DNA from: a bacterium
GTDB lineage: Bacteria; Joyebacterota; Joyebacteria; Joyebacterales; Joyebacteraceae
DNA: 64,000 nucleotides
Assembly (NCBI GenBank): GCA_025774935.1
Contig: JALGZK010000001.1
Span: forward strand, 66,331 to 130,330
Reading direction: 5' to 3'
Every line of letters begins with the position of its first letter. Position 1 is the first letter of the stretch. Of the stretch, positions 29,470 to 49,935 are shown piece after piece. The position numbers were made by a program, and so were the translations under genes. Under the pieces are notes generated by a model. That model ran no database searches, was not told the DNA's origin, and worked only from the letters and a program-made list of their open reading frames with translations.

Positions 29470-30009
29470 GTGCGCCTCGAACTGCTCGCTGCGACGGATG
29501 CCGACTACGAGGTGGTGAGGAACCTCGTACCGCTCTACGTCCACGACATCTCCGAGTGGATGGGGTGGGACTGCCCGGAGTCGGGGTACTTCGGCGGTTG
29601 CGACGATCTGCCGCTGTACTGGGGAATGCCGCCCACGGACCCGCGCTACAGGTGGCCCGGCAGCTGGCGGGGCTTTCCGTTCATGATCCGGGTGGACGGC
29701 CGGCTCGCCGGCTTCGCGCTCGTTCGCAGGCTCCAGGAGGGAGCCCCCCCCGTCTACGAGATCGCCGAGTTCTTCGTCCTCAGGAAGTACCGCCGGAGCG
29801 GAGTGGGTCGAGAGGCTGCGCACGGGATCTTCGACACCCTCGAGGGCAGTTGGGAGGTCAGGGAACTCCTGGGCAACAGGCCGGCGCAGGACTTCTGGAG
29901 GAAGGTCATCTCGGAGTACACGCACGGCGCCTTCGAGGAGACCGTGGAGCCGGCCGTAACGGGTCCCTTCGAGATGCTGACGCAGAGGTTTACGAGCACC
30001 GGAAGTTGA
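29470..30009 (+). CDS. GNAT N-acetyltransferase
   Basis: EIAEFFVLRKYRRSGVG; N.PAQ.FW. Confidence 0.85.
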   Translation: MRLELLAATDADYEVVRNLVPLYVHDISEWMGWDCPESGYFGGCDDLPLYWGMPPTDPRYRWPGSWRGFPFMIRVDGRLAGFALVRRLQEGAPPVYEIAEFFVLRKYRRSGVGREAAHGIFDTLEGSWEVRELLGNRPAQDFWRKVISEYTHGAFEETVEPAVTGPFEMLTQRFTSTGS

Positions 30010-30058
30010 ACGCGAGCATCGGAAGTGAGACGGGCGGGCAAGCGAAGCGGGAGGCGAC

Positions 30059-30454
30059 GTGACGGGAATCGACGCGCAGATCACGTTCTGCTACACGCTC
30101 GATCTCGCAGGCACGGCGAGGTTCTACGAGGACGTGCTCGGACTGCGGCTCGCGCTCGACCAGGGCGGCTGCCGCATCTACCGCGTCGCCGGAAGCGCGT
30201 ACCTCGGCTTCTGTGAGAGGGAGGACGCGGCGCGTCCGGCGGGAGTGCTCTTGACGCTCGTGACCGACGACGTCGACGGCTGGCACGAGAGGCTCGCGTC
30301 CGCGGGCGTCACGTTCGACAGGCCACCCGCGCACAACCCGGAGTACGCGATCTACCACTGCTTCTGCCGCGACCCGAACGGCTACGTGATCGAGATCCAG
30401 CGTTTCGACGATCCGGCCTGGGACGGATGCGGAAGGGAGGCCGGCGGGGAGTAG
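30059..30454 (+). CDS. VOC/glyoxalase family protein
   Basis: FYEDVLGL...DDVD.W...RDPNGYVIEI. Confidence 0.9.
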   Translation: MTGIDAQITFCYTLDLAGTARFYEDVLGLRLALDQGGCRIYRVAGSAYLGFCEREDAARPAGVLLTLVTDDVDGWHERLASAGVTFDRPPAHNPEYAIYHCFCRDPNGYVIEIQRFDDPAWDGCGREAGGE

Positions 30455-30458
30455 GGCG

Positions 30459-31484
30459 ATGGAGAGCGGAACGGCGAGAGAGGTGATGGGCGAGGCGACG
30501 AAGCCCGTCGTCCGGCACGCGACCTCCACGATGACCGCCGCGGACTGGTGGGACCACCTCCTTGCGCGGTGGTCGATCGACCGACAGGGACACCGGGTGG
30601 AGCCGGGACTCTACGCCCTCGGGACCCCGGACAGGGCGGCCCCCGTCTTCGTCACCGCGAACTACACGCTGAGCTTCGACGCTCTCAGGACGGCGGTCGG
30701 GGACATCGACTGCTACATCGTCGTCCTCGACACGCTCGGGGTCAACGTCTGGTGCGCGGCCGGGAAGGGGACGTTCGGGACCGACGAGCTCGTCCGCAGG
30801 GTCGAGGCGACCGGACTCGCCGACGTGGTGGACCACAGGCGACTCATCGTGCCACAGCTCGGCGCGACCGGGGTCGCAGCACACGAGGTCACGAGGAGGA
30901 CAGGCTTCCGCGTGGAGTACGGACCCGTGCGCGCCGCGGACATCCCGGAGTACCTGGAGCTCGGCGAGGCGACGGCGGCGATGCGGCGGATGACCTTCCC
31001 GCTCAAGGACCGCCTGGTGCTCATCCCCGTGGACCTCGTGAAGGCGCTTCCGTTCGGGCTCGGGGCGGCGATCCTGCTCTACTTCCTCGGGGGCCCCCTT
31101 CTCGCCTGGGCTGCCCTCACGGCGGTTCTGGCGGGAGCCGTCCTCTTCCCGATCCTCCTCCCGTGGCTCCCGACCCCCAATTTCAGCACGAAGGGGCTCA
31201 TTCTCGGGGTCGTCGCGGCGGTGCCGTTTCTGGTAGGCTGGTTGGGTGGGCGGCAGGAACTCGGGCCGTGGTTCCTCTACGGGGGTGCCCTTGCGCTCCT
31301 GCTCACGATGCCCCCGGTGACCGCCTACATAGCCCTGAACTTCACCGGCTCGACGACGTACACCTCGAAGACCGGCGTCGAGAGGGAGATACGGAGGTAC
31401 ATCCCCGCCATGGTCTGGACGTTCGGGGCGGGCCTCGTGCTCGCGATCGTCCTCGCCGTGGCGGCGAAGGTCGGAGGGCGATGA
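30459..31484 (+). CDS. hgcA: Mercury methylation corrinoid protein HgcA
   Basis: Cap-helix motif GVNVWCAAGKGTFGT; VTANY; PQLGATGV; C-terminal TM domain ending NFTGSTTYTS. Confidence 0.95.
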   Translation: MESGTAREVMGEATKPVVRHATSTMTAADWWDHLLARWSIDRQGHRVEPGLYALGTPDRAAPVFVTANYTLSFDALRTAVGDIDCYIVVLDTLGVNVWCAAGKGTFGTDELVRRVEATGLADVVDHRRLIVPQLGATGVAAHEVTRRTGFRVEYGPVRAADIPEYLELGEATAAMRRMTFPLKDRLVLIPVDLVKALPFGLGAAILLYFLGGPLLAWAALTAVLAGAVLFPILLPWLPTPNFSTKGLILGVVAAVPFLVGWLGGRQELGPWFLYGGALALLLTMPPVTAYIALNFTGSTTYTSKTGVEREIRRYIPAMVWTFGAGLVLAIVLAVAAKVGGR

Positions 31485-31903
31485 TGTACGACGCCTACGC
31501 GACGAATACACTCGAATACGACCCGACGCTCTGCGCCGGCTGCTGGACGTGCATGGCCGTCTGTCCGCACGAGGTCTTCGCGCGGGAGAACGGCGTCGTC
31601 CGGGTCGCCCACGCGCCTTCGTGCATGGAGTGCGGCGCGTGCCAGCTGAACTGCCCGACCGGGGCGCTCAAGGTAGACAGCGGGGTGGGCTGCGCGTACG
31701 CCATCATCTGGTCCGCTCTCACCGGGCGGGATGACCTGAGCTGCTGCGGGGACAGGGCGCCCAGCTCGCGCGGAGGAGACGCAGAGGCCGCTCAGGAGCA
31801 GTCCCGGCCCGCAGGGTGCTGCGGAGAGCCGGTGCAGGAGAGCGCGGCTTCGTCCCCGGAGGGGGCGAAGCCGGGCGACGATGGCGACTGCTGCTGCGGG
31901 TGA
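31481..31903 (+). CDS. hgcB: Mercury methylation ferredoxin HgcB with extended Cys-rich tail
   Basis: ATGA overlap with hgcA; CAGCWTCMAVCPH, CMECGACQLNCP, SGVGCA; tail CCG...CCG...CCCG. Confidence 0.93.
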   Translation: MMYDAYATNTLEYDPTLCAGCWTCMAVCPHEVFARENGVVRVAHAPSCMECGACQLNCPTGALKVDSGVGCAYAIIWSALTGRDDLSCCGDRAPSSRGGDAEAAQEQSRPAGCCGEPVQESAASSPEGAKPGDDGDCCCG

Positions 31904-31988
31904 CGAACTGGATTCGATGAATGTGAGTCGGAAGAGCCGACGCCGCGGGGGGACGATCGTCTCCCGTCGGGCTTCACTGGGAGGTGTC

Positions 31989-32450
31989 ATGAGATCGACG
32001 CGCACCGGAAGGGCGCTGGGGTGCCTGCTCGTGCTCGCACTGGCCGCCGTCCCGCTCGGAGGATGCTCGGAGAAGAACGGCGGCGAGCCGACGACGGAGA
32101 CTGTCCAGACCGAGAAGAAGGGCGTCTCACGGATAACGCCTGAGGAAGTGAAGGCGCGGATGGACGGCGGGGAGACGTTCGTGTTCGTCGACTCACGGAG
32201 CGCGCAGTCCTGGAAGGGATCGACGAAGAAGCTCCCGGGAGCCATCCGTGTTCCCTCCAGCGAGGTTGCAGAGCATCTCGACGAGATCCCCAGGGAGGGC
32301 GTTGTCGTCGTCTACTGCACGTGACACAACGAGGGATCCAGCGCCCGTGTGGCGCTCGAGCTCATGGGGGAAGGCTGGGAGAACGCCTACGCGCTCAGGG
32401 GCGGGTACGGGGCCTGGGTCGAGGGAGGACTCCCGGTGGAGGACAAGTAG
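31989..32450 (+). CDS. Rhodanese-domain lipoprotein selenoprotein, CxU motif; TGA 32322-32324 read as Sec
   Basis: Lipobox LGGC; VDSR, LPGAIRVP, VVVYCTUHNEGSSARVALELMGEGWENAYALRGGYGAWVEGGLPVE; the rhodanese C-terminal signature lies after the TGA. Confidence 0.9.
32325..32363 (+). promoter_or_regulatory. Putative SECIS hairpin for the rhodanese selenoprotein
   Basis: AGCGCC(32340-32345)/loop CGTGT/GGCGCT(32351-32356); GAG 32331-32333 can pair with CTC 32361-32363. Confidence 0.75.
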
Positions 32451-32525
32451 GGAAGGCCCGGGCAGGACGGCGACGGAAGGACGGAGACGGGTCGAGCGGG
32501 TCGGGCCGGATGATGGGAGAGCACC

Positions 32526-33605
32526 ATGTCGGACGACGTCTACAGCAAGCTCGCGGAGCGTCTCGACGAGATCCCGAACGGGTTCACGCGCACCGAGAGC
32601 GGAATCGAGCTCAGGCTCCTCGCGAAGATGTACGAGCCCCTCGAAGCGGAGACCGCCTCGGCCATGCGCCTCACGCCTGAGCCTCCCGCTGCGATCGGCG
32701 AGCGAGTGGGACTCGATGCCGAGGCGGCAGCCGAACGGCTCGCGGCCATGAGGAAGCGTGGGCTGATTCGCGCGTCCCGGGGGGACGCCGGTCCGCTCTA
32801 CGGACTCATGCCGTTCGCGGTGGGCGTCTACGAGGACCAGCTCGGGCGTATGGATGAGGAGATGGCCTCGCTCTTCGAGCAGTACTACCAGGAGTCGAGG
32901 GGCGGCATCATGACGCAGGGCGAGCCGGCCCTTCACCGCGTAATCCCCGTCGAGCAGTCGGTCCCCGTCGACATCGAGGTCTTCCCATACGAGCGCGCCA
33001 CGGAGATGCTGGAGCGCGCGCGCGCGTGGGGCGTCCGTGACTGCATCTGCCGCGTCCAACAGAAGAAGATCGGGAAGGGCTGTGACAGCCCCATCGACAA
33101 CTGCATCGTCTTCGCGCCCGTTCCGGGCGTGTTCGACAAGAGCGAGGAGATACGCGTCCTCTCGAAAGAGGAAGCCCTCGGCATCCTCGCCGAGGCGGCG
33201 GACGCCGGGCTCGTGCACTCCACGTCGAACCAGCAGGACCAGATTCACTACATCTGCAACTGCTGCACGTGCTGCTGCGGAATCCTCCGTGGGGTGGCGG
33301 AGTTCGCGATCCCGACCGCCGTGGCGCGTTCGGACTTCCAGATGACCGTTGACGACGGGGCGTGCGTCGCGTGTGGCGCCTGCCTCGACCGGTGTCGCTT
33401 CGGGGCCATGAGCGTCGACGATGTGTGCGCCGTGGACGAGACTCGCTGCGTCGGGTGCGGCGTCTGCGTGACGGCGTGTCCGGCGGACGCGCTCGTGCTC
33501 AGGCGGCGGCCCGAGGGACAGGTCGACGCACCACCGGCGAACGGACGCGCGTGGATGGCGGAGCGTGCGAAGAACCGCGGCAAGTCGATGGAAGGTATCC
33601 TCTAG
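32526..33605 (+). CDS. 4Fe-4S cluster-binding protein with N-terminal HTH-like region
   Basis: CICR, ICNCCTCCCGIL, two CxxCxxCxxxC motifs. Confidence 0.85.
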   Translation: MSDDVYSKLAERLDEIPNGFTRTESGIELRLLAKMYEPLEAETASAMRLTPEPPAAIGERVGLDAEAAAERLAAMRKRGLIRASRGDAGPLYGLMPFAVGVYEDQLGRMDEEMASLFEQYYQESRGGIMTQGEPALHRVIPVEQSVPVDIEVFPYERATEMLERARAWGVRDCICRVQQKKIGKGCDSPIDNCIVFAPVPGVFDKSEEIRVLSKEEALGILAEAADAGLVHSTSNQQDQIHYICNCCTCCCGILRGVAEFAIPTAVARSDFQMTVDDGACVACGACLDRCRFGAMSVDDVCAVDETRCVGCGVCVTACPADALVLRRRPEGQVDAPPANGRAWMAERAKNRGKSMEGIL

Positions 33606-33716
33606 GACGAACACGCGCCGGGCACCCGGCGCGATACTGGACTCGAGACGAGAGAGCATCAAGAGCGCTGCACCGAATGAGAAGCGACGGTTCGCATCCG
33701 GCCGAGGAGGTTGGCG

Positions 33717-33905
33717 GTGCTGAATCTCATGAAGGTGTTGGTAGTGCTCGCCGCGCTGGCGTTCGTCATCGCGCTCATCGGATCGCTCACGGGGTTCTTC
33801 TTCTTGAACGTGAGCCCCGAGGGCTACTCGAGAGCGTGCACGAACCTCGCGCTCATCGCGATCGCGCTCAAGTTCGCGTTCATCGCGGACAAGAAGCCCG
33901 TCTGA
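33717..33905 (+). CDS. Small membrane protein
   Basis: GAGGAGG RBS; two TM segments. Confidence 0.65.
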   Translation: MLNLMKVLVVLAALAFVIALIGSLTGFFFLNVSPEGYSRACTNLALIAIALKFAFIADKKPV

Positions 33906-33930
33906 CCGAGAGGGCGGCAGGCAGCGCGTA

Positions 33931-34395
33931 ATGGTGACGATCCGCCGGGCCTCGACGGCTGAGGACGTGGCGACGGCGCGGTCGCTCGTGGAGGAGTATG
34001 CCGCGGCGCTCGCGTTCGGCCTCGAGTTCCAGGACTTCGAGCAGGAGCTGGAGGGGTTCCCGGGGGAGTACGGGCCGCCGGCGGGTGCCATTCTGCTCGC
34101 CGAACTCGGGGGCGAGGCGCTCGGCTGCGTGTGCCTGAGGCGTCTCTCCCATGGCGTCTGCGAGATGAAGCGCCTCTATGTGCGCCCGTCGGGCCGTGGG
34201 TCAGGAGCCGGTCGGGCGCTGGCGGAGGCGCTGCTCGAAGAGGGCCGGCGGCTCGGCTATGCGCGCATGCGGCTCGACACGGTCGAAGCCATGAAGGCGG
34301 CGAACGCGCTCTACCGATCTCTCGGCTTCCGAGAGATCGAACCGTACAGGGCGAATCCAATCGAGGGAGCGACGTTCTTCGAGCGGGACCTGTGA
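33931..34395 (+). CDS. GNAT N-acetyltransferase
   Basis: CEMKRLYVRP..RG.G.G; MRLDT; LYRSLGF. Confidence 0.9.
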   Translation: MVTIRRASTAEDVATARSLVEEYAAALAFGLEFQDFEQELEGFPGEYGPPAGAILLAELGGEALGCVCLRRLSHGVCEMKRLYVRPSGRGSGAGRALAEALLEEGRRLGYARMRLDTVEAMKAANALYRSLGFREIEPYRANPIEGATFFERDL

Positions 34396-34450
34396 CCGCG
34401 GACCTCTCTTGTGGAGGCCGCGCGGCGGCCGACGGACACGAGGACGGGCA

Positions 34451-34924
34451 GTGGCCGACAAGGCGTTCCAGGACTTCTACCCGGGAGACTTCGCGCAGTG
34501 CTACGGCTGCGGGAGGTTGAACGAGGACGGTCTTCAGCTCAAGAGCTACTGGGACGGCGGCGAGACCGTGTGCCGATTCACGCCGCGCCCGTACCACACG
34601 GCGGTTCCCGGGTATGTGTACGGTGGCCTCATCGCATCCCTCATCGACTGCCACTGCACCGGTACGGCGGCCGCCGCGGCGGCGCGTGCCGAGGACCGCG
34701 CGATCGACTCCGATCCCCCGTTCCGGTTCGTGACCGCGTCGCTCAAGGTCGACTACCTGAAGCCCACGCCGCTCGGTCCAGAGCTGGAGGTCCGGGCGAG
34801 GGTCGACGAGATGAAGGGGCGGAAGGTCGTCATGAGCGCCAGCGTGTCCGCCGAGGGTGAGGTCTGCGCGCGGGGTGAGGTCGTGGCGATCCTCATCCCG
34901 GGGAGCCTCGCCGGGGGCGAATAG
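34451..34924 (+). CDS. PaaI/hotdog-fold thioesterase
   Basis: CYGCG.LN..GL; VYGGLIASLIDCH; VTASLKVDYLKPTP. Confidence 0.88.
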   Translation: MADKAFQDFYPGDFAQCYGCGRLNEDGLQLKSYWDGGETVCRFTPRPYHTAVPGYVYGGLIASLIDCHCTGTAAAAAARAEDRAIDSDPPFRFVTASLKVDYLKPTPLGPELEVRARVDEMKGRKVVMSASVSAEGEVCARGEVVAILIPGSLAGGE

Positions 34925-48359: not shown

Positions 48360-48892
48360 GCCGGGAGGCGCCGATACCACAGGAGCGGATCGACGCTCTG
48401 GTGAACGAACTCATACGGGACGCGGAGGCGGGCAGCTATCATCTGAATCCCGACCTGGGGTTCGTGACGGACCTGGCCGCGGGGCTCCTGGTGAACGAGG
48501 AGCGGCACGGCTATCGGTCCTGCCCGTGCCGGCTCGCGGTCGACGACCGCGAACGCGACCGTGACATCATCTGTCCCTGCGACTACAGGGACCCGGATCT
48601 CTCCGAGCACGGCGCCTGCTACTGCGCGCTCTACGTTTCGGGGGACGTGCTGACGGGGAAGCGCGAGCTCGGTTCGGTTCCGGAACGGAGGCCGACCGAG
48701 GAGGAGAGAGCGAGAGCCCGCGAGGCTCGAAGCGCGAGCATCGCGGGGACCGGCGGGGCGTCCGGAGGCCTGGTGCCGCCACTTCCGGTCTGGCGGTGTA
48801 CCGTCTGCGGGTACCTCTGCGGGCGGGACGAGCCCCCTGAAGTCTGCCCGATCTGCAAGGCCACGAAGGAACGCTTCGATCGCTTTCTGTAG
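48356..48892 (+). CDS. Ferredoxin:thioredoxin/disulfide reductase catalytic subunit with C-terminal rubredoxin-like domain
   Basis: CPC, CPC, CYC; WRCTVCGY...CPIC. Confidence 0.9.
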   Translation: MSREAPIPQERIDALVNELIRDAEAGSYHLNPDLGFVTDLAAGLLVNEERHGYRSCPCRLAVDDRERDRDIICPCDYRDPDLSEHGACYCALYVSGDVLTGKRELGSVPERRPTEEERARAREARSASIAGTGGASGGLVPPLPVWRCTVCGYLCGRDEPPEVCPICKATKERFDRFL

Positions 48893-48938
48893 TCCGATCA
48901 CCGAACGGCGAGGACGGTCGCACACGACGGAGGAAGCA

Positions 48939-49490
48939 ATGGAAGACGGTGGCGTTCCGCTTCACTACGTCTGCACGCACGATCAGGCGCGTGAACTCGC
49001 TTCGGAGTTCGACAGGTTCTGGGTCTCGAACTGCGGTTGCCGTGAGGGCCGCGAGGAAGGCTGCGCGCGCTCCAGGATCGACGTCTGCCTGATGTTTGCG
49101 AGCGACACCGGTTCGAGCGGATCGGGGCTCAAGGAGATCACGAAGGGCGACCTCGAGGCGATCTTCGAAGAGGCAACGAGCAAGTGGCTCGTGACCAGGC
49201 CGTTTCGCGGGTACGTGGACCGGTCGAGGACCGAGGGAATCTGTTTCTGCTGCGACGATTGCTGCGGCTACTTCCTGGATCCGATCGAGGTGTGCGAAAA
49301 GGGGACGCTTCTCGAGAGGACTGCGATGGAGGCCTGCACGGACTGCGGGCTCTGTCCCGACGTGTGCTATTTCCACGCGAGAGAGATGAAGGACGGGAAG
49401 CTCGTCGTCACGCGTGAGCAGTGCTACGGGTGCGGGCTCTGTGCGGACGCCTGCCCGGAGCGGTGCATCGAGATGGTCGGACGTAAGTGA
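48939..49490 (+). CDS. 4Fe-4S cluster-binding protein
   Basis: CGCR; ICFCCDDCC; two ferredoxin motifs. Confidence 0.85.
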   Translation: MEDGGVPLHYVCTHDQARELASEFDRFWVSNCGCREGREEGCARSRIDVCLMFASDTGSSGSGLKEITKGDLEAIFEEATSKWLVTRPFRGYVDRSRTEGICFCCDDCCGYFLDPIEVCEKGTLLERTAMEACTDCGLCPDVCYFHAREMKDGKLVVTREQCYGCGLCADACPERCIEMVGRK

Positions 49491-49518
49491 ACCGGGGAAT
49501 CCGATGGCAGGGACTGCG

Positions 49519-49935
49519 ATGGAGACGGAAGAGCGCGTGAACGCCGACTGTTCGGAGGTGACTCCGGACACGGAGAGGCTGCAGGAAGAGCTCGCGCAGT
49601 ATCGACAGGAGAAGGAGAAGATCCGCCGGCTCGTCGGGCAGATCGGCGGAGTGGCCTCGAACCGGCGCGACCGGATGATGAACGTCATGTTCATGGTCGC
49701 GATCGGACTCCTCCTGATCATCGACGTGCTCCGCCACGTGCTCGGGTGGGAGCTGCCGCTCCCGGCGCTCTTCTCGCTCGAACTCGGCGTGCTGCTGGTG
49801 TCGATCAAGATCATCTGGATGATCCACCGTTCCACGAAGGTCGAGCACTTCCAGTTCTGGATCCTGAACACGATCGAGTTCCGCCTGAACGAGATCTCGA
49901 AGAGGATCTCGGAGATTGAGAAGCGCCTGAAGTAG
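49519..49935 (+). CDS. Hypothetical two-TM protein
   Basis: EKEKIR..VGQIGG; LLVSIKIIWMIH; HFQFWILN.IEFR. Confidence 0.75.
   Translation: METEERVNADCSEVTPDTERLQEELAQYRQEKEKIRRLVGQIGGVASNRRDRMMNVMFMVAIGLLLIIDVLRHVLGWELPLPALFSLELGVLLVSIKIIWMIHRSTKVEHFQFWILNTIEFRLNEISKRISEIEKRLK

What the first reader, a model, noticed from the sequence alone, without database searches (positions are those of the whole stretch)
31989..32450. Exported selenocysteine rhodanese lipoprotein immediately downstream of hgcB
Seen: the ORF track stops at YCT, but the frame continues through TGA into HNEGSSARVA...ALRGGYGAW...GLPVE, completing the rhodanese fold. It has an N-terminal lipobox (LGGC) and a SECIS-like hairpin, and starts 85 nt after hgcB on the same strand. 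Established: selenol groups bind Hg very strongly, and rhodaneses transfer S/Se. Inference: an envelope-located Sec sulfurtransferase possibly co-expressed with hgcAB.
Basis: partly seen in the sequence, partly recalled or inferred. Interest (0 to 1): 0.75.

Follow-up and report, generated by a model that had tools for sequence, protein, structure and literature searches.

The report
Selenocysteine rhodanese lipoprotein beside hgcAB
The apparent stop codon in this small gene almost certainly encodes selenocysteine, giving an exported sulfur-transfer-type (rhodanese) protein of a selenoprotein family that is already catalogued, and its position next to the mercury-methylation genes is found in only one genus.

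Summary
The gene at 31989-32450 (+) has one in-frame TGA (32322-32324, residue 112). Read through, it gives a 153-residue single-domain rhodanese with a lipoprotein-type signal and the motif Y-C-T-U.

Evidence for selenocysteine:
- The same TGA is kept in 7 other genomes of the phylum and in an acidobacterium.
- Relatives carry Cys at that column.
- A hairpin 15 nt downstream has frozen synonymous sites. It is present in all Sec forms and in 8 of 78 Cys forms.
- The genome has selA, selB, selD and tRNA-Sec.

The protein's best family match is NCBIfam NF041203, "rhodanese-related (seleno)protein". A 2026 review lists this as the CxU form 3 rhodanese. The protein scores 105 bits against a cut-off of 115. 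Members that pass the cut-off also carry signal peptides. I therefore call it a new member of a known kind.

The mercury link is weak:
- The string hgcA-hgcB-rhodanese-FeS gene is kept only in the window's genus (3 of 3 genomes).
- A sister genus has hgcAB directly followed by the FeS gene, with no rhodanese.
- 5 other genomes carry the rhodanese away from hgcAB.
- None of 80 metagenome relatives lies near hgcAB.
- Co-transcription is plausible but untested.

The parts
31989..32450 (+). Coding sequence of the selenoprotein (153 residues plus TAG stop); TGA at codon 112 read as Sec
31980..31984 (+). GGAGG ribosome-binding site, 4 nt before the ATG
   Evidence: read directly; G002 keeps GGGAGGTGTCATGAGATC
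31989..32066 (+). Lipoprotein-type signal: MRSTRTGR, hydrophobic core, L-G-G-C26 (Cys codon 32064-32066)
   Evidence: 6 of 7 orthologs in the phylum fit a recalled PROSITE-style lipoprotein pattern, and the window's own misses it by Pro at -4; lspA and lgt are in the genome
32136..32423 (+). Rhodanese domain (residues 50-145)
   Evidence: Pfam PF00581 E 2e-12; AF2 model pLDDT 97-98 over the domain; Foldseek top hits are rhodanese domains, best 3tp9 E 9e-10
32316..32324 (+). Active-site motif C110-T111-U112 (TGC ACG TGA)
   Evidence: C110 invariant and column 112 C or U in 47 aligned sequences
32340..32356 (+). SECIS core hairpin: 6-bp stem AGCGCC/GGCGCU and loop CGUGU, 15 nt after UGA
30459..31484 (+). 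hgcA (context)
   Evidence: NF040863 425.1 bits, cut-off 275
31484..31903 (+). hgcB (context), 139 aa with a long Cys-rich tail
   Evidence: NF040864 101.1 bits, cut-off 99, covers residues 5-89 only
32526..33605 (+). 359-aa 4Fe-4S protein, 75 nt downstream; it follows hgcAB in two genera, with or without the rhodanese in between

Best explanation
This is a real selenoprotein gene. Shown or strongly supported: UGA-112 is recoded as selenocysteine with the help of a hairpin in the coding sequence 15 nt downstream (stem AGCGCC/GGCGCU, loop CGUGU), and the genome has selA, selB, selD and tRNA-Sec. The product is a single-domain rhodanese whose active-site loop carries Cys110-Thr-Sec112 and an invariant Glu115. 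Inferred: the N-terminal signal sends it through the Sec translocon, and Lgt and LspA lipidate it at Cys26, so it faces the periplasm of a double-membraned bacterium. Inferred from the family: Sec112 and Cys110 work as a selenol/thiol pair. Either they accept a sulfane sulfur or selenium atom, or they cycle through a selenenylsulfide. This would make the protein an envelope S/Se-transfer or redox protein, not a classical thiosulfate:cyanide sulfurtransferase. It belongs to the clade around NCBIfam NF041203 (CxU/CxC rhodaneses). In this genus the gene sits between hgcB and a conserved 4Fe-4S gene and is probably transcribed with them. That placement is a genus-level rearrangement and is not evidence of a dedicated role in mercury methylation.
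For: Sec:
- The TGA sits at the same codon in 8 genomes of the phylum, at 41-80% identity to the window's protein (7 besides the window's own, one of them partial), and in a Pyrinomonadaceae genome at 57%.
- Cys occupies that column in P0006, P0007, L013 and 80 of 80 metagenome relatives.
- Codons +6, +8, +9 and +10 show no synonymous change in 8 of 8 Sec forms, while 17 of 20 other invariant-residue codons vary.
- L023 carries a compensatory pair in the stem.
- All 9 Sec forms with this hairpin, and L024 with its own, have at least 5 of 6 Watson-Crick pairs, against 8 of 78 distinct Cys forms.
- selA 533 bits, selB 345 bits, selD 371 bits with its own TGA, and a 99-nt tRNA-Sec beside selD.

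Fold and family.
- NF041203 is the best family for all 19 relatives and orthologs tested.
- P0106, the Megalodesulfovibrio gigas protein that NCBI names 'rhodanese-related (seleno)protein', has a signal peptide and scores 124.7 bits.
- The review PMC13188914 lists 'Rhodanese-like form 3, NF041203, CxU' (passages seen).

Export:
- 7 of 7 full-length orthologs in the phylum have a positively charged start, a hydrophobic core and a Cys after it.
- lspA and lgt are present.

Operon:
- Gaps of 0, 85 and 75 nt on one strand, with no terminator-like site on the + strand in 29900-34500.
- The same order is found in G001 and G002.
Against: - The hairpin's folding energy is not better than shuffled sequence.
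- The hairpin overlaps the conserved peptide S-A-R-V-A, so part of its conservation comes from coding constraint. One Cys form (L013) also has 5 of 6 pairs.
- No protein or RNA data exist: the two RNA runs found hold nothing over the gene.
- The window's own lipobox (L-G-G-C with Pro at -4) misses the recalled PROSITE-style pattern, and no signal-peptide predictor was available.
- The protein scores 105.1 bits, under the 115-bit cut-off of NF041203.
- It is unsettled which residue holds the canonical catalytic position. The AF2 model and the phmmer alignments to 3tp9, 1yt8 and 6pfz place Cys110 there. My own residue count's printed alignment gives the same spacing to the downstream GG motif for Sec112 as for the catalytic Cys of 3tp9.
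- The chemistry proposed is inferred from the family, which has no characterised member that I found.
Confidence: 0.78

Rival explanations
1. One reading: the Sec-rhodanese is a functional partner of HgcAB. As an envelope selenol/thiol protein it would bind Hg(II), or supply sulfur or selenium, and so control how much mercury reaches the methylation enzyme. It would be co-expressed with hgcAB.
For: - The gene lies inside a co-directional string hgcA-hgcB-rhd-FeS gene, with 85- and 75-nt gaps and no predicted terminator. The string is kept in all 3 genomes of the genus at 56-80% protein identity.
- A C-x-U pair would bind Hg(II) very tightly (established chemistry, recalled).
- There is precedent for Sec in mercury proteins. 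The review lists Sec forms of a MerT-like transporter, of HgcA (CU motif) and of HgcB, and Haft and Gwadz describe them (passages seen).
- This HgcA has no room for the Sec-bearing N-terminal extension, because the glyoxalase gene ends 4 nt before it.
Against: - Only 3 of 9 hgcA-bearing genomes among the 31 of the phylum have the adjacency, and all 3 are in one genus.
- G008 has the same GNAT-glyoxalase-hgcA-hgcB-FeS block without the rhodanese.
- G022 has both genes on different contigs. G021, G009, G007 and G013 carry the Sec-rhodanese and gave no hgcA match (completeness 94-97%).
- The neighbours of those orthologs are unrelated to each other: msrBA, NUDIX, a putative carbonic anhydrase, a CHRD domain protein.
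- 0 of 80 metagenome relatives have HgcA or HgcB in the DNA held (408 kb; many contigs are short).
- The rhodanese is predicted to be outside the cytoplasm, whereas the HgcA corrinoid domain and HgcB are cytoplasmic (recalled).
- Three papers contain both 'hgcAB' and 'rhodanese', and none describes adjacency.
Confidence: 0.15
2. The TGA is a true stop. The gene would then be a 111-residue truncated rhodanese or a pseudogene, and the downstream open frame would be a by-product of high G+C.
For: - Public gene calls end there: P0002-P0005, P0051, P0092 and P0133 all stop after ...YCT or ...YCM.
- The hairpin energy is unremarkable.
Against: - The 41 residues after the TGA align with the conserved helix and the GG[YF]xAW motif of the family.
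- The frame after the TGA is kept at 41-80% identity in 7 other genomes.
- Cys replaces the TGA codon in relatives.
- The synonymous sites of the hairpin are frozen only in TGA forms.
- A rhodanese cut at residue 111 would lack the active-site loop and two secondary-structure elements.
Confidence: 0.03
3. The protein is not a lipoprotein. It would be a soluble periplasmic protein, or an inner-membrane protein held by an uncleaved signal anchor.
For: - The window's lipobox deviates from the recalled consensus, with Gly at -2 and Pro at -4.
- NF041203 members that pass the cut-off (P0106, P0072) have signal peptides without a Cys after the hydrophobic core, by my reading.
Against: - A Cys directly after the hydrophobic core is kept in 7 of 7 orthologs in the phylum and in P0092 and P0133.
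- 6 of 7 fit the pattern.
- A Gly/Ser/Glu-rich linker follows the Cys, which is typical of lipoprotein tethers.
Confidence: 0.12

Closest known systems
[quoted passage not shown]
   Same: Single rhodanese domain. C-x-U or C-x-C in the active-site loop, followed by an invariant Glu. Best-scoring family for this protein and for every relative tested. Members that pass the cut-off (P0106 of Megalodesulfovibrio gigas, P0072) carry signal peptides, so they are exported too.
   Different: It scores 105.1 bits, under the curated 115. The motif is YCTU rather than LYCAU. It has a lipoprotein-type Cys instead of a plain signal peptide. In one genus it sits in an hgcAB string. I found no experimental work on any member.
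GlpE / PspE single-domain thiosulfate sulfurtransferases of Escherichia coli
   Same: Same ~100-residue rhodanese fold (NF001195 GlpE, weak hit at 32 bits; Foldseek hits to single-domain rhodaneses). PspE is periplasmic (recalled).
   Different: Those have one catalytic Cys in a six-residue loop and no selenium. Here the stretch between the strand and the GG motif is two residues longer than in 3tp9. It holds Cys and Sec two residues apart, has an invariant Glu and no basic residue in the loop.
ExtH, the rhodanese-like lipoprotein of Geobacter sulfurreducens, tied to the porin ExtI and selenite uptake (Jahan et al. 2019; seen only as an entry in the reference list of PMC12915048)
   Same: A rhodanese-type lipoprotein in the envelope of an anaerobe that also carries hgcAB, and one linked to selenium chemistry.
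   Different: No sequence comparison was made here. As I recall, ExtH is a larger Cys protein encoded with a porin and cytochromes. No such genes flank this one.
Sec forms of HgcA (PCUGP N-terminal extension) and HgcB (GVGU) described by Haft and Gwadz (bioRxiv 10.1101/2022.07.06.499078, passages seen)
   Same: Selenocysteine next to cysteine in proteins of the mercury-methylation locus.
   Different: Those Sec residues are inside HgcA and HgcB themselves. Here HgcA has no such extension and HgcB has GVGC. The Sec is in a separate, exported protein. That paper does not mention rhodanese (0 occurrences).

Membership tests
Bacterial selenoprotein (UGA recoded by SelB) | In-frame UGA with a conserved reading frame on both sides | tested here: met
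   The Pfam domain spans the TGA. The TGA is at the same codon in 8 genomes of the phylum (including the window's own) and in L012.
Bacterial selenoprotein (UGA recoded by SelB) | Homologs with Cys at the Sec column | tested here: met
   P0006, P0007, L013 and 80 of 80 metagenome loci have YC[TSA]C.
Bacterial selenoprotein (UGA recoded by SelB) | SECIS hairpin shortly after the UGA, with G/U in the apical loop | tested here: met
   The stem starts 15 nt after the UGA and the loop is CGUGU. Synonymous sites are frozen in 8 of 8 Sec forms. At least 5 of 6 pairs form in all Sec forms against 8 of 78 Cys forms. The spacing and loop rules are recalled, not taken from a tool. Rfam gave no match.
Bacterial selenoprotein (UGA recoded by SelB) | selA, selB, selD and tRNA-Sec in the genome | tested here: met
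   all over their cut-offs; 99-nt tRNA with anticodon TCA beside selD.
NF041203 rhodanese-related (seleno)protein, form 3 CxU | Score at or above the curated cut-off (115 bits) | tested here: not met
   105.1 bits and 98.1 bits on the genome search. Orthologs score 90-104. P0106 (124.7) and P0072 (121) pass, P0113 reaches 114.4 and P0125 108.1. The scores form a continuum, so I call this a close relative rather than an equivalog.
NF041203 rhodanese-related (seleno)protein, form 3 CxU | C-x-U / C-x-C motif in the rhodanese active-site loop | tested here: met
   C110-T-U112. C110 is invariant and column 112 is C or U in at least 90% of 47 sequences.
Bacterial lipoprotein | Signal with positive start, hydrophobic core and lipobox Cys | tested here: inconclusive
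   The recalled PROSITE-style pattern fits 6 of 7 orthologs; the window's own fails by Pro at -4 but has L-G-G-C. No LipoP or SignalP was available.
Bacterial lipoprotein | Lgt and LspA present | tested here: met
   lspA 130.5 bits and lgt 167.6 bits, both over their cut-offs.
hgcAB accessory gene | Adjacency to hgcAB kept across lineages | tested here: not met
   3 of 9 hgcA-bearing genomes of 31, all in one genus; 0 of 80 metagenome loci.
hgcAB accessory gene | Co-transcription with hgcAB | not testable with these tools
   Two RNA runs hold only contigs at 32610-32899 and small pieces elsewhere. Nothing covers 31904-32450.
Classical thiosulfate:cyanide sulfurtransferase (GlpE/PspE/Rhd type) | Six-residue loop starting with the catalytic Cys and carrying basic residues (recalled motif CRxGx[RT]) | tested here: not met
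   The stretch is C-T-U-H-N-E-G-S, with no Arg or Lys, an invariant Glu115, and two more residues than 3tp9 between the strand and the helix.

The most novel reading that the evidence does not exclude
In this genus of Eisenbacteria, an envelope-anchored Cys-x-Sec rhodanese was recruited into the hgcAB operon. There it acts as a periplasmic Hg(II) (or sulfide/selenide) carrier that gates how much mercury reaches HgcAB. It would be the first extracytoplasmic accessory protein of mercury methylation, and a direct molecular point of contact between selenium and methylmercury formation.
Probability: 0.1. Interest if true: 0.75.

Novelty: new member of a known kind. Interest (0 to 1): 0.3.

Why it matters
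The practical gain is annotation. Every public gene call I saw for this gene and its orthologs stops at codon 111 (P0002-P0005, P0051, P0092, P0133), so a whole clade of exported Cys-x-Sec rhodaneses is recorded as fragments. The biological interest is modest, because the family is catalogued but uncharacterised. The hgcAB adjacency is worth a cheap experiment (Hg(II) binding, co-transcription), since uptake and delivery of Hg(II) to HgcAB is an open question. The comparative evidence, however, says the adjacency is local to one genus.

Tried and rejected
- **RNA evidence.** One search for RNA runs found two runs with a 0.06 word share. When laid, they hold 235- and 243-nt contigs identical to 32610-32899 in the downstream FeS gene, plus short imperfect pieces. 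Nothing covers the rhodanese or either junction. This gives no information on co-transcription.
- **Rfam.** The scan of 31000-33500 at E up to 10 returned four chance-level hits and no SECIS family.
- **Folding energy.** The hairpin region is no better than shuffles, so energy was dropped as an argument.
- **Promoter and terminator scan of 29900-34500.** It found 0 promoter-like sites and 2 terminator-like sites, both on the minus strand. This is uninformative for an organism whose promoters may differ.
- **Intergenic alignments of the three genomes of the genus.** Only the ribosome-binding site is conserved, with no conserved element.
- **Metagenome scan.** It used a single pattern containing Cys at the Sec column, so it could return only Cys forms. 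It says nothing about how common Sec forms are.
- **Word-index protein search.** It found only 7 proteins.
- **Protein-atlas look-up of the FeS protein.** It gave only unnamed 4Fe-4S clusters.
- **Rejected: the rhodanese of this genus came from Acidobacteria.** The idea came from its 57% identity to L012 against 41-47% to other genera. A quick tree puts all nine lipoprotein Sec forms together, though with weak support (SH-aLRT 84, 110 columns).

Full report
**1. What is in the sequence**

- The ORF list ends a frame at 32324 with ...VVVVYCT.
- From ATG 31989, reading TGA 32322-32324 as U gives a frame of 153 residues that runs to TAG 32450.
- GGAGG lies 4 nt before the ATG.
- Pfam Rhodanese covers residues 50-145, so it spans the TGA (E 2e-12).
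- The two genes upstream are hgcA (NF040863, 425 bits against a cut-off of 275) and hgcB (NF040864, 101 against 99).
- Downstream, after 75 nt, lies a 359-residue 4Fe-4S protein (32526-33605).

**2. Is the TGA selenocysteine?** Four lines of evidence agree.

*Machinery.* The genome (96% complete) has the following:
- selA at 533 bits, selB at 345 bits and selD at 371 bits; selD carries its own in-frame TGA.
- A 99-nt tRNA with anticodon TCA about 150 nt after selD.

*Conservation of the TGA.* I searched 61 genomes with the protein.
- 8 genomes of the window's phylum, including its own, have a match with exactly one in-frame TGA. tblastn identity to the window's protein is 41-80% (one of the eight, G013, is a partial copy).
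- A ninth genome from another family has two TGAs.
- The TGA is at the same codon in all of them, and in a Pyrinomonadaceae genome (L012).

*Cys/Sec pairs.*
- P0006, P0007 and a Dehalococcoidia fusion protein (L013) carry Cys at that column.

*SECIS.* A hairpin starts 15 nt after the UGA, with stem AGCGCC/GGCGCU and loop CGUGU.
- Its energy is unremarkable.
- Its four codons with invariant residues (Ser AGC, Arg CGT, Val GTG, Ala GCG) show no synonymous change in 8 of 8 Sec forms. Of 20 other invariant-residue codons, 17 vary. By my hand calculation, this split has a chance of about 0.003 within the same set of sequences.
- G013 has a compensatory GUC/GAC pair.
- As a control, all 9 Sec forms with this hairpin have at least 5 of 6 Watson-Crick pairs, as does L024 with a different hairpin at the same place. 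Only 8 of 78 distinct Cys forms do. The Cys forms use CGC, CGT, CGG, AAG or CAG at the Arg codon.
- Rfam has no matching family.

I put read-through as Sec at about 0.95.

**3. What kind of protein**

- The AF2 model built from 47 sequences is confident over the domain (pLDDT 97-98) and low over residues 1-45.
- Foldseek returns rhodanese domains. The best is 3tp9 at E 9e-10.
- NCBIfam's best family is NF041203, "rhodanese-related (seleno)protein", at 105.1 bits against a cut-off of 115. It is also the best family for all 18 relatives tested, which score 72.6-124.7 bits.
- Two relatives pass the cut-off, both with signal peptides. One is the Megalodesulfovibrio gigas protein that NCBI names this way.
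- A 2026 review lists "Rhodanese-like form 3, NF041203, CxU" among known prokaryotic selenoproteins (PMC13188914, passages).
- The family is therefore known, and the window's protein sits just below its equivalog line.

The active-site stretch is unusual for a rhodanese. It reads C110-T-U112-H-N-E115-G-S, with Glu115 invariant, no basic residue, and two residues more than in 3tp9. Which residue holds the canonical catalytic position is unsettled. The model (strand 105-109, helix from 116) and the phmmer alignments put Cys110 there. My residue count's alignment gives the same spacing to the GG motif for Sec112 as for the catalytic Cys of 3tp9.

**4. Export**

- All 7 full-length orthologs in the phylum have a charged start, a hydrophobic core and a Cys directly after it.
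- 6 of the 7 fit a recalled PROSITE-style lipoprotein pattern. The window's own misses it only by Pro at -4.
- lspA and lgt are present.
- Two further truncated public proteins (P0092, P0133) have the same build.
- Among the 80 metagenome Cys forms, none has an N-terminal lipoprotein signal. Two pattern hits lie in the last membrane helix of fusion proteins.
- Of those 80, 52 are C-terminal domains of VTT/DedA-type membrane proteins (Pfam confirmed for 2 of 2 tested). 18 are small stand-alone proteins, 4 are cut by contig ends, and 6 are other.
- Earlier notes of this scan call the genome Eisenbacteria and double-membraned. I did not check this.

**5. The hgcAB link.** The phylum as held has 31 genomes in one family.

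- hgcA is found in 9 of them, 7 over the cut-off.
- The Sec-rhodanese is found in 8.
- Both occur in 4 genomes, and they are adjacent in 3. Those 3 are the three genomes of the window's genus, with the order hgcA-hgcB-rhd-FeS.
- G008, in another genus, has GNAT-glyoxalase-hgcA-hgcB-FeS. About 100 nt separate hgcB from the FeS gene, and there is no rhodanese. In the window's genus the rhodanese is therefore an insertion into an older block, or it was lost in G008.
- G022 has both genes on different contigs.
- In G024 and G016, hgcAB lies between ispDF and gltX. In G022 it lies between corA and a cobW-like gene.
- Orthologs outside the genus have unrelated neighbours: msrB-msrA behind an ArsR/DUF2087 regulator in G021, NUDIX and a putative carbonic anhydrase in G007 and G013, and a CHRD protein in G022.
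- None of the 80 metagenome loci (408,315 bases; many contigs are short) encodes HgcA, HgcB or the FeS protein.
- A quick tree groups the nine lipoprotein Sec forms with weak support (SH-aLRT 84). This fits one ancestral gene that moved.

**6. Literature**

- A search for 'hgcAB' with 'rhodanese' found 3 papers. In the passages I read, none reports adjacency.
- 'hgcA' with 'Eisenbacteria' found 2 papers, neither about this locus.
- Haft and Gwadz describe Sec forms of HgcA and HgcB and do not mention rhodanese.
- I did not open any supplementary tables of these papers, so gene-neighbourhood tables there may hold rhodaneses that I did not see.

**7. Verdict**

- This is a correct and useful call of an unannotated selenoprotein. 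It is a new member of a catalogued but uncharacterised family.
- It probably works as an envelope Cys/Sec sulfur- or selenium-transfer or redox protein.
- Co-transcription with hgcAB is plausible from the anatomy but untested.
- A dedicated role in mercury methylation is not supported by comparative data. I keep it at 0.10-0.15.

Noticed in passing
window 31484-31903: HgcB is 139 residues, but the HgcB model covers only residues 5-89. The roughly 50-residue tail carries extra CC, CC and a terminal CCC-G motif, where typical HgcB ends in a single CC pair.
   Followed up: no
window 32526-33605; L063:16-906 (G008); window about 48729-49574: A 359-residue protein with a helix-turn-helix-like start, a Cys-rich middle and two 4Fe-4S motifs follows hgcAB in two genera (64-85% identity), with or without the rhodanese. 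A 26%-identical paralog lies 16 kb downstream. The protein atlas shows only unnamed 4Fe-4S clusters in anaerobes. It is a better candidate for a conserved hgcAB neighbour in this phylum than the rhodanese.
   Followed up: partly
L024 / L061:6611-6928 (G036, another family): A cytoplasmic relative reads Y-U-T-U, with TGA at both the Cys and the Sec column and a strong hairpin 14 nt after the second TGA. It lies beside a TauE/SafE sulfite-exporter gene.
   Followed up: no
L088-L147 (metagenome loci): 52 of 80 CxC relatives are C-terminal domains of VTT/DedA-type membrane proteins. This fusion looks abundant in soil metagenomes (Pfam confirmed on 2).
   Followed up: partly
G000:C14:177978-179141: selD carries its own in-frame TGA, and tRNA-Sec lies about 150 nt downstream. 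A second, 79-nt 'tRNA-SeC' call on C36 was not checked.
   Followed up: no
window 32610-32899: Two RNA libraries labelled seawater and soil, from different studies, each hold a low-depth contig identical to this stretch of the FeS gene and nothing else of the locus. I cannot tell whether this is presence of the organism or carry-over.
   Followed up: no
L056:6230-8376 (G021): Here the Sec-rhodanese ortholog lies 64 nt after an msrB-msrA fusion gene and behind an ArsR/DUF2087 regulator on the same strand. This hints at a redox-repair setting in that genus.
   Followed up: no
G000:C1:303144-303920: The lgt match is reported with one TAG inside the matched span. It may be an end effect of the match.
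   Followed up: no
L012:5554-5889: In the Pyrinomonadaceae genome, a second rhodanese (34% identity) lies directly upstream of the cytoplasmic Sec form.
   Followed up: no
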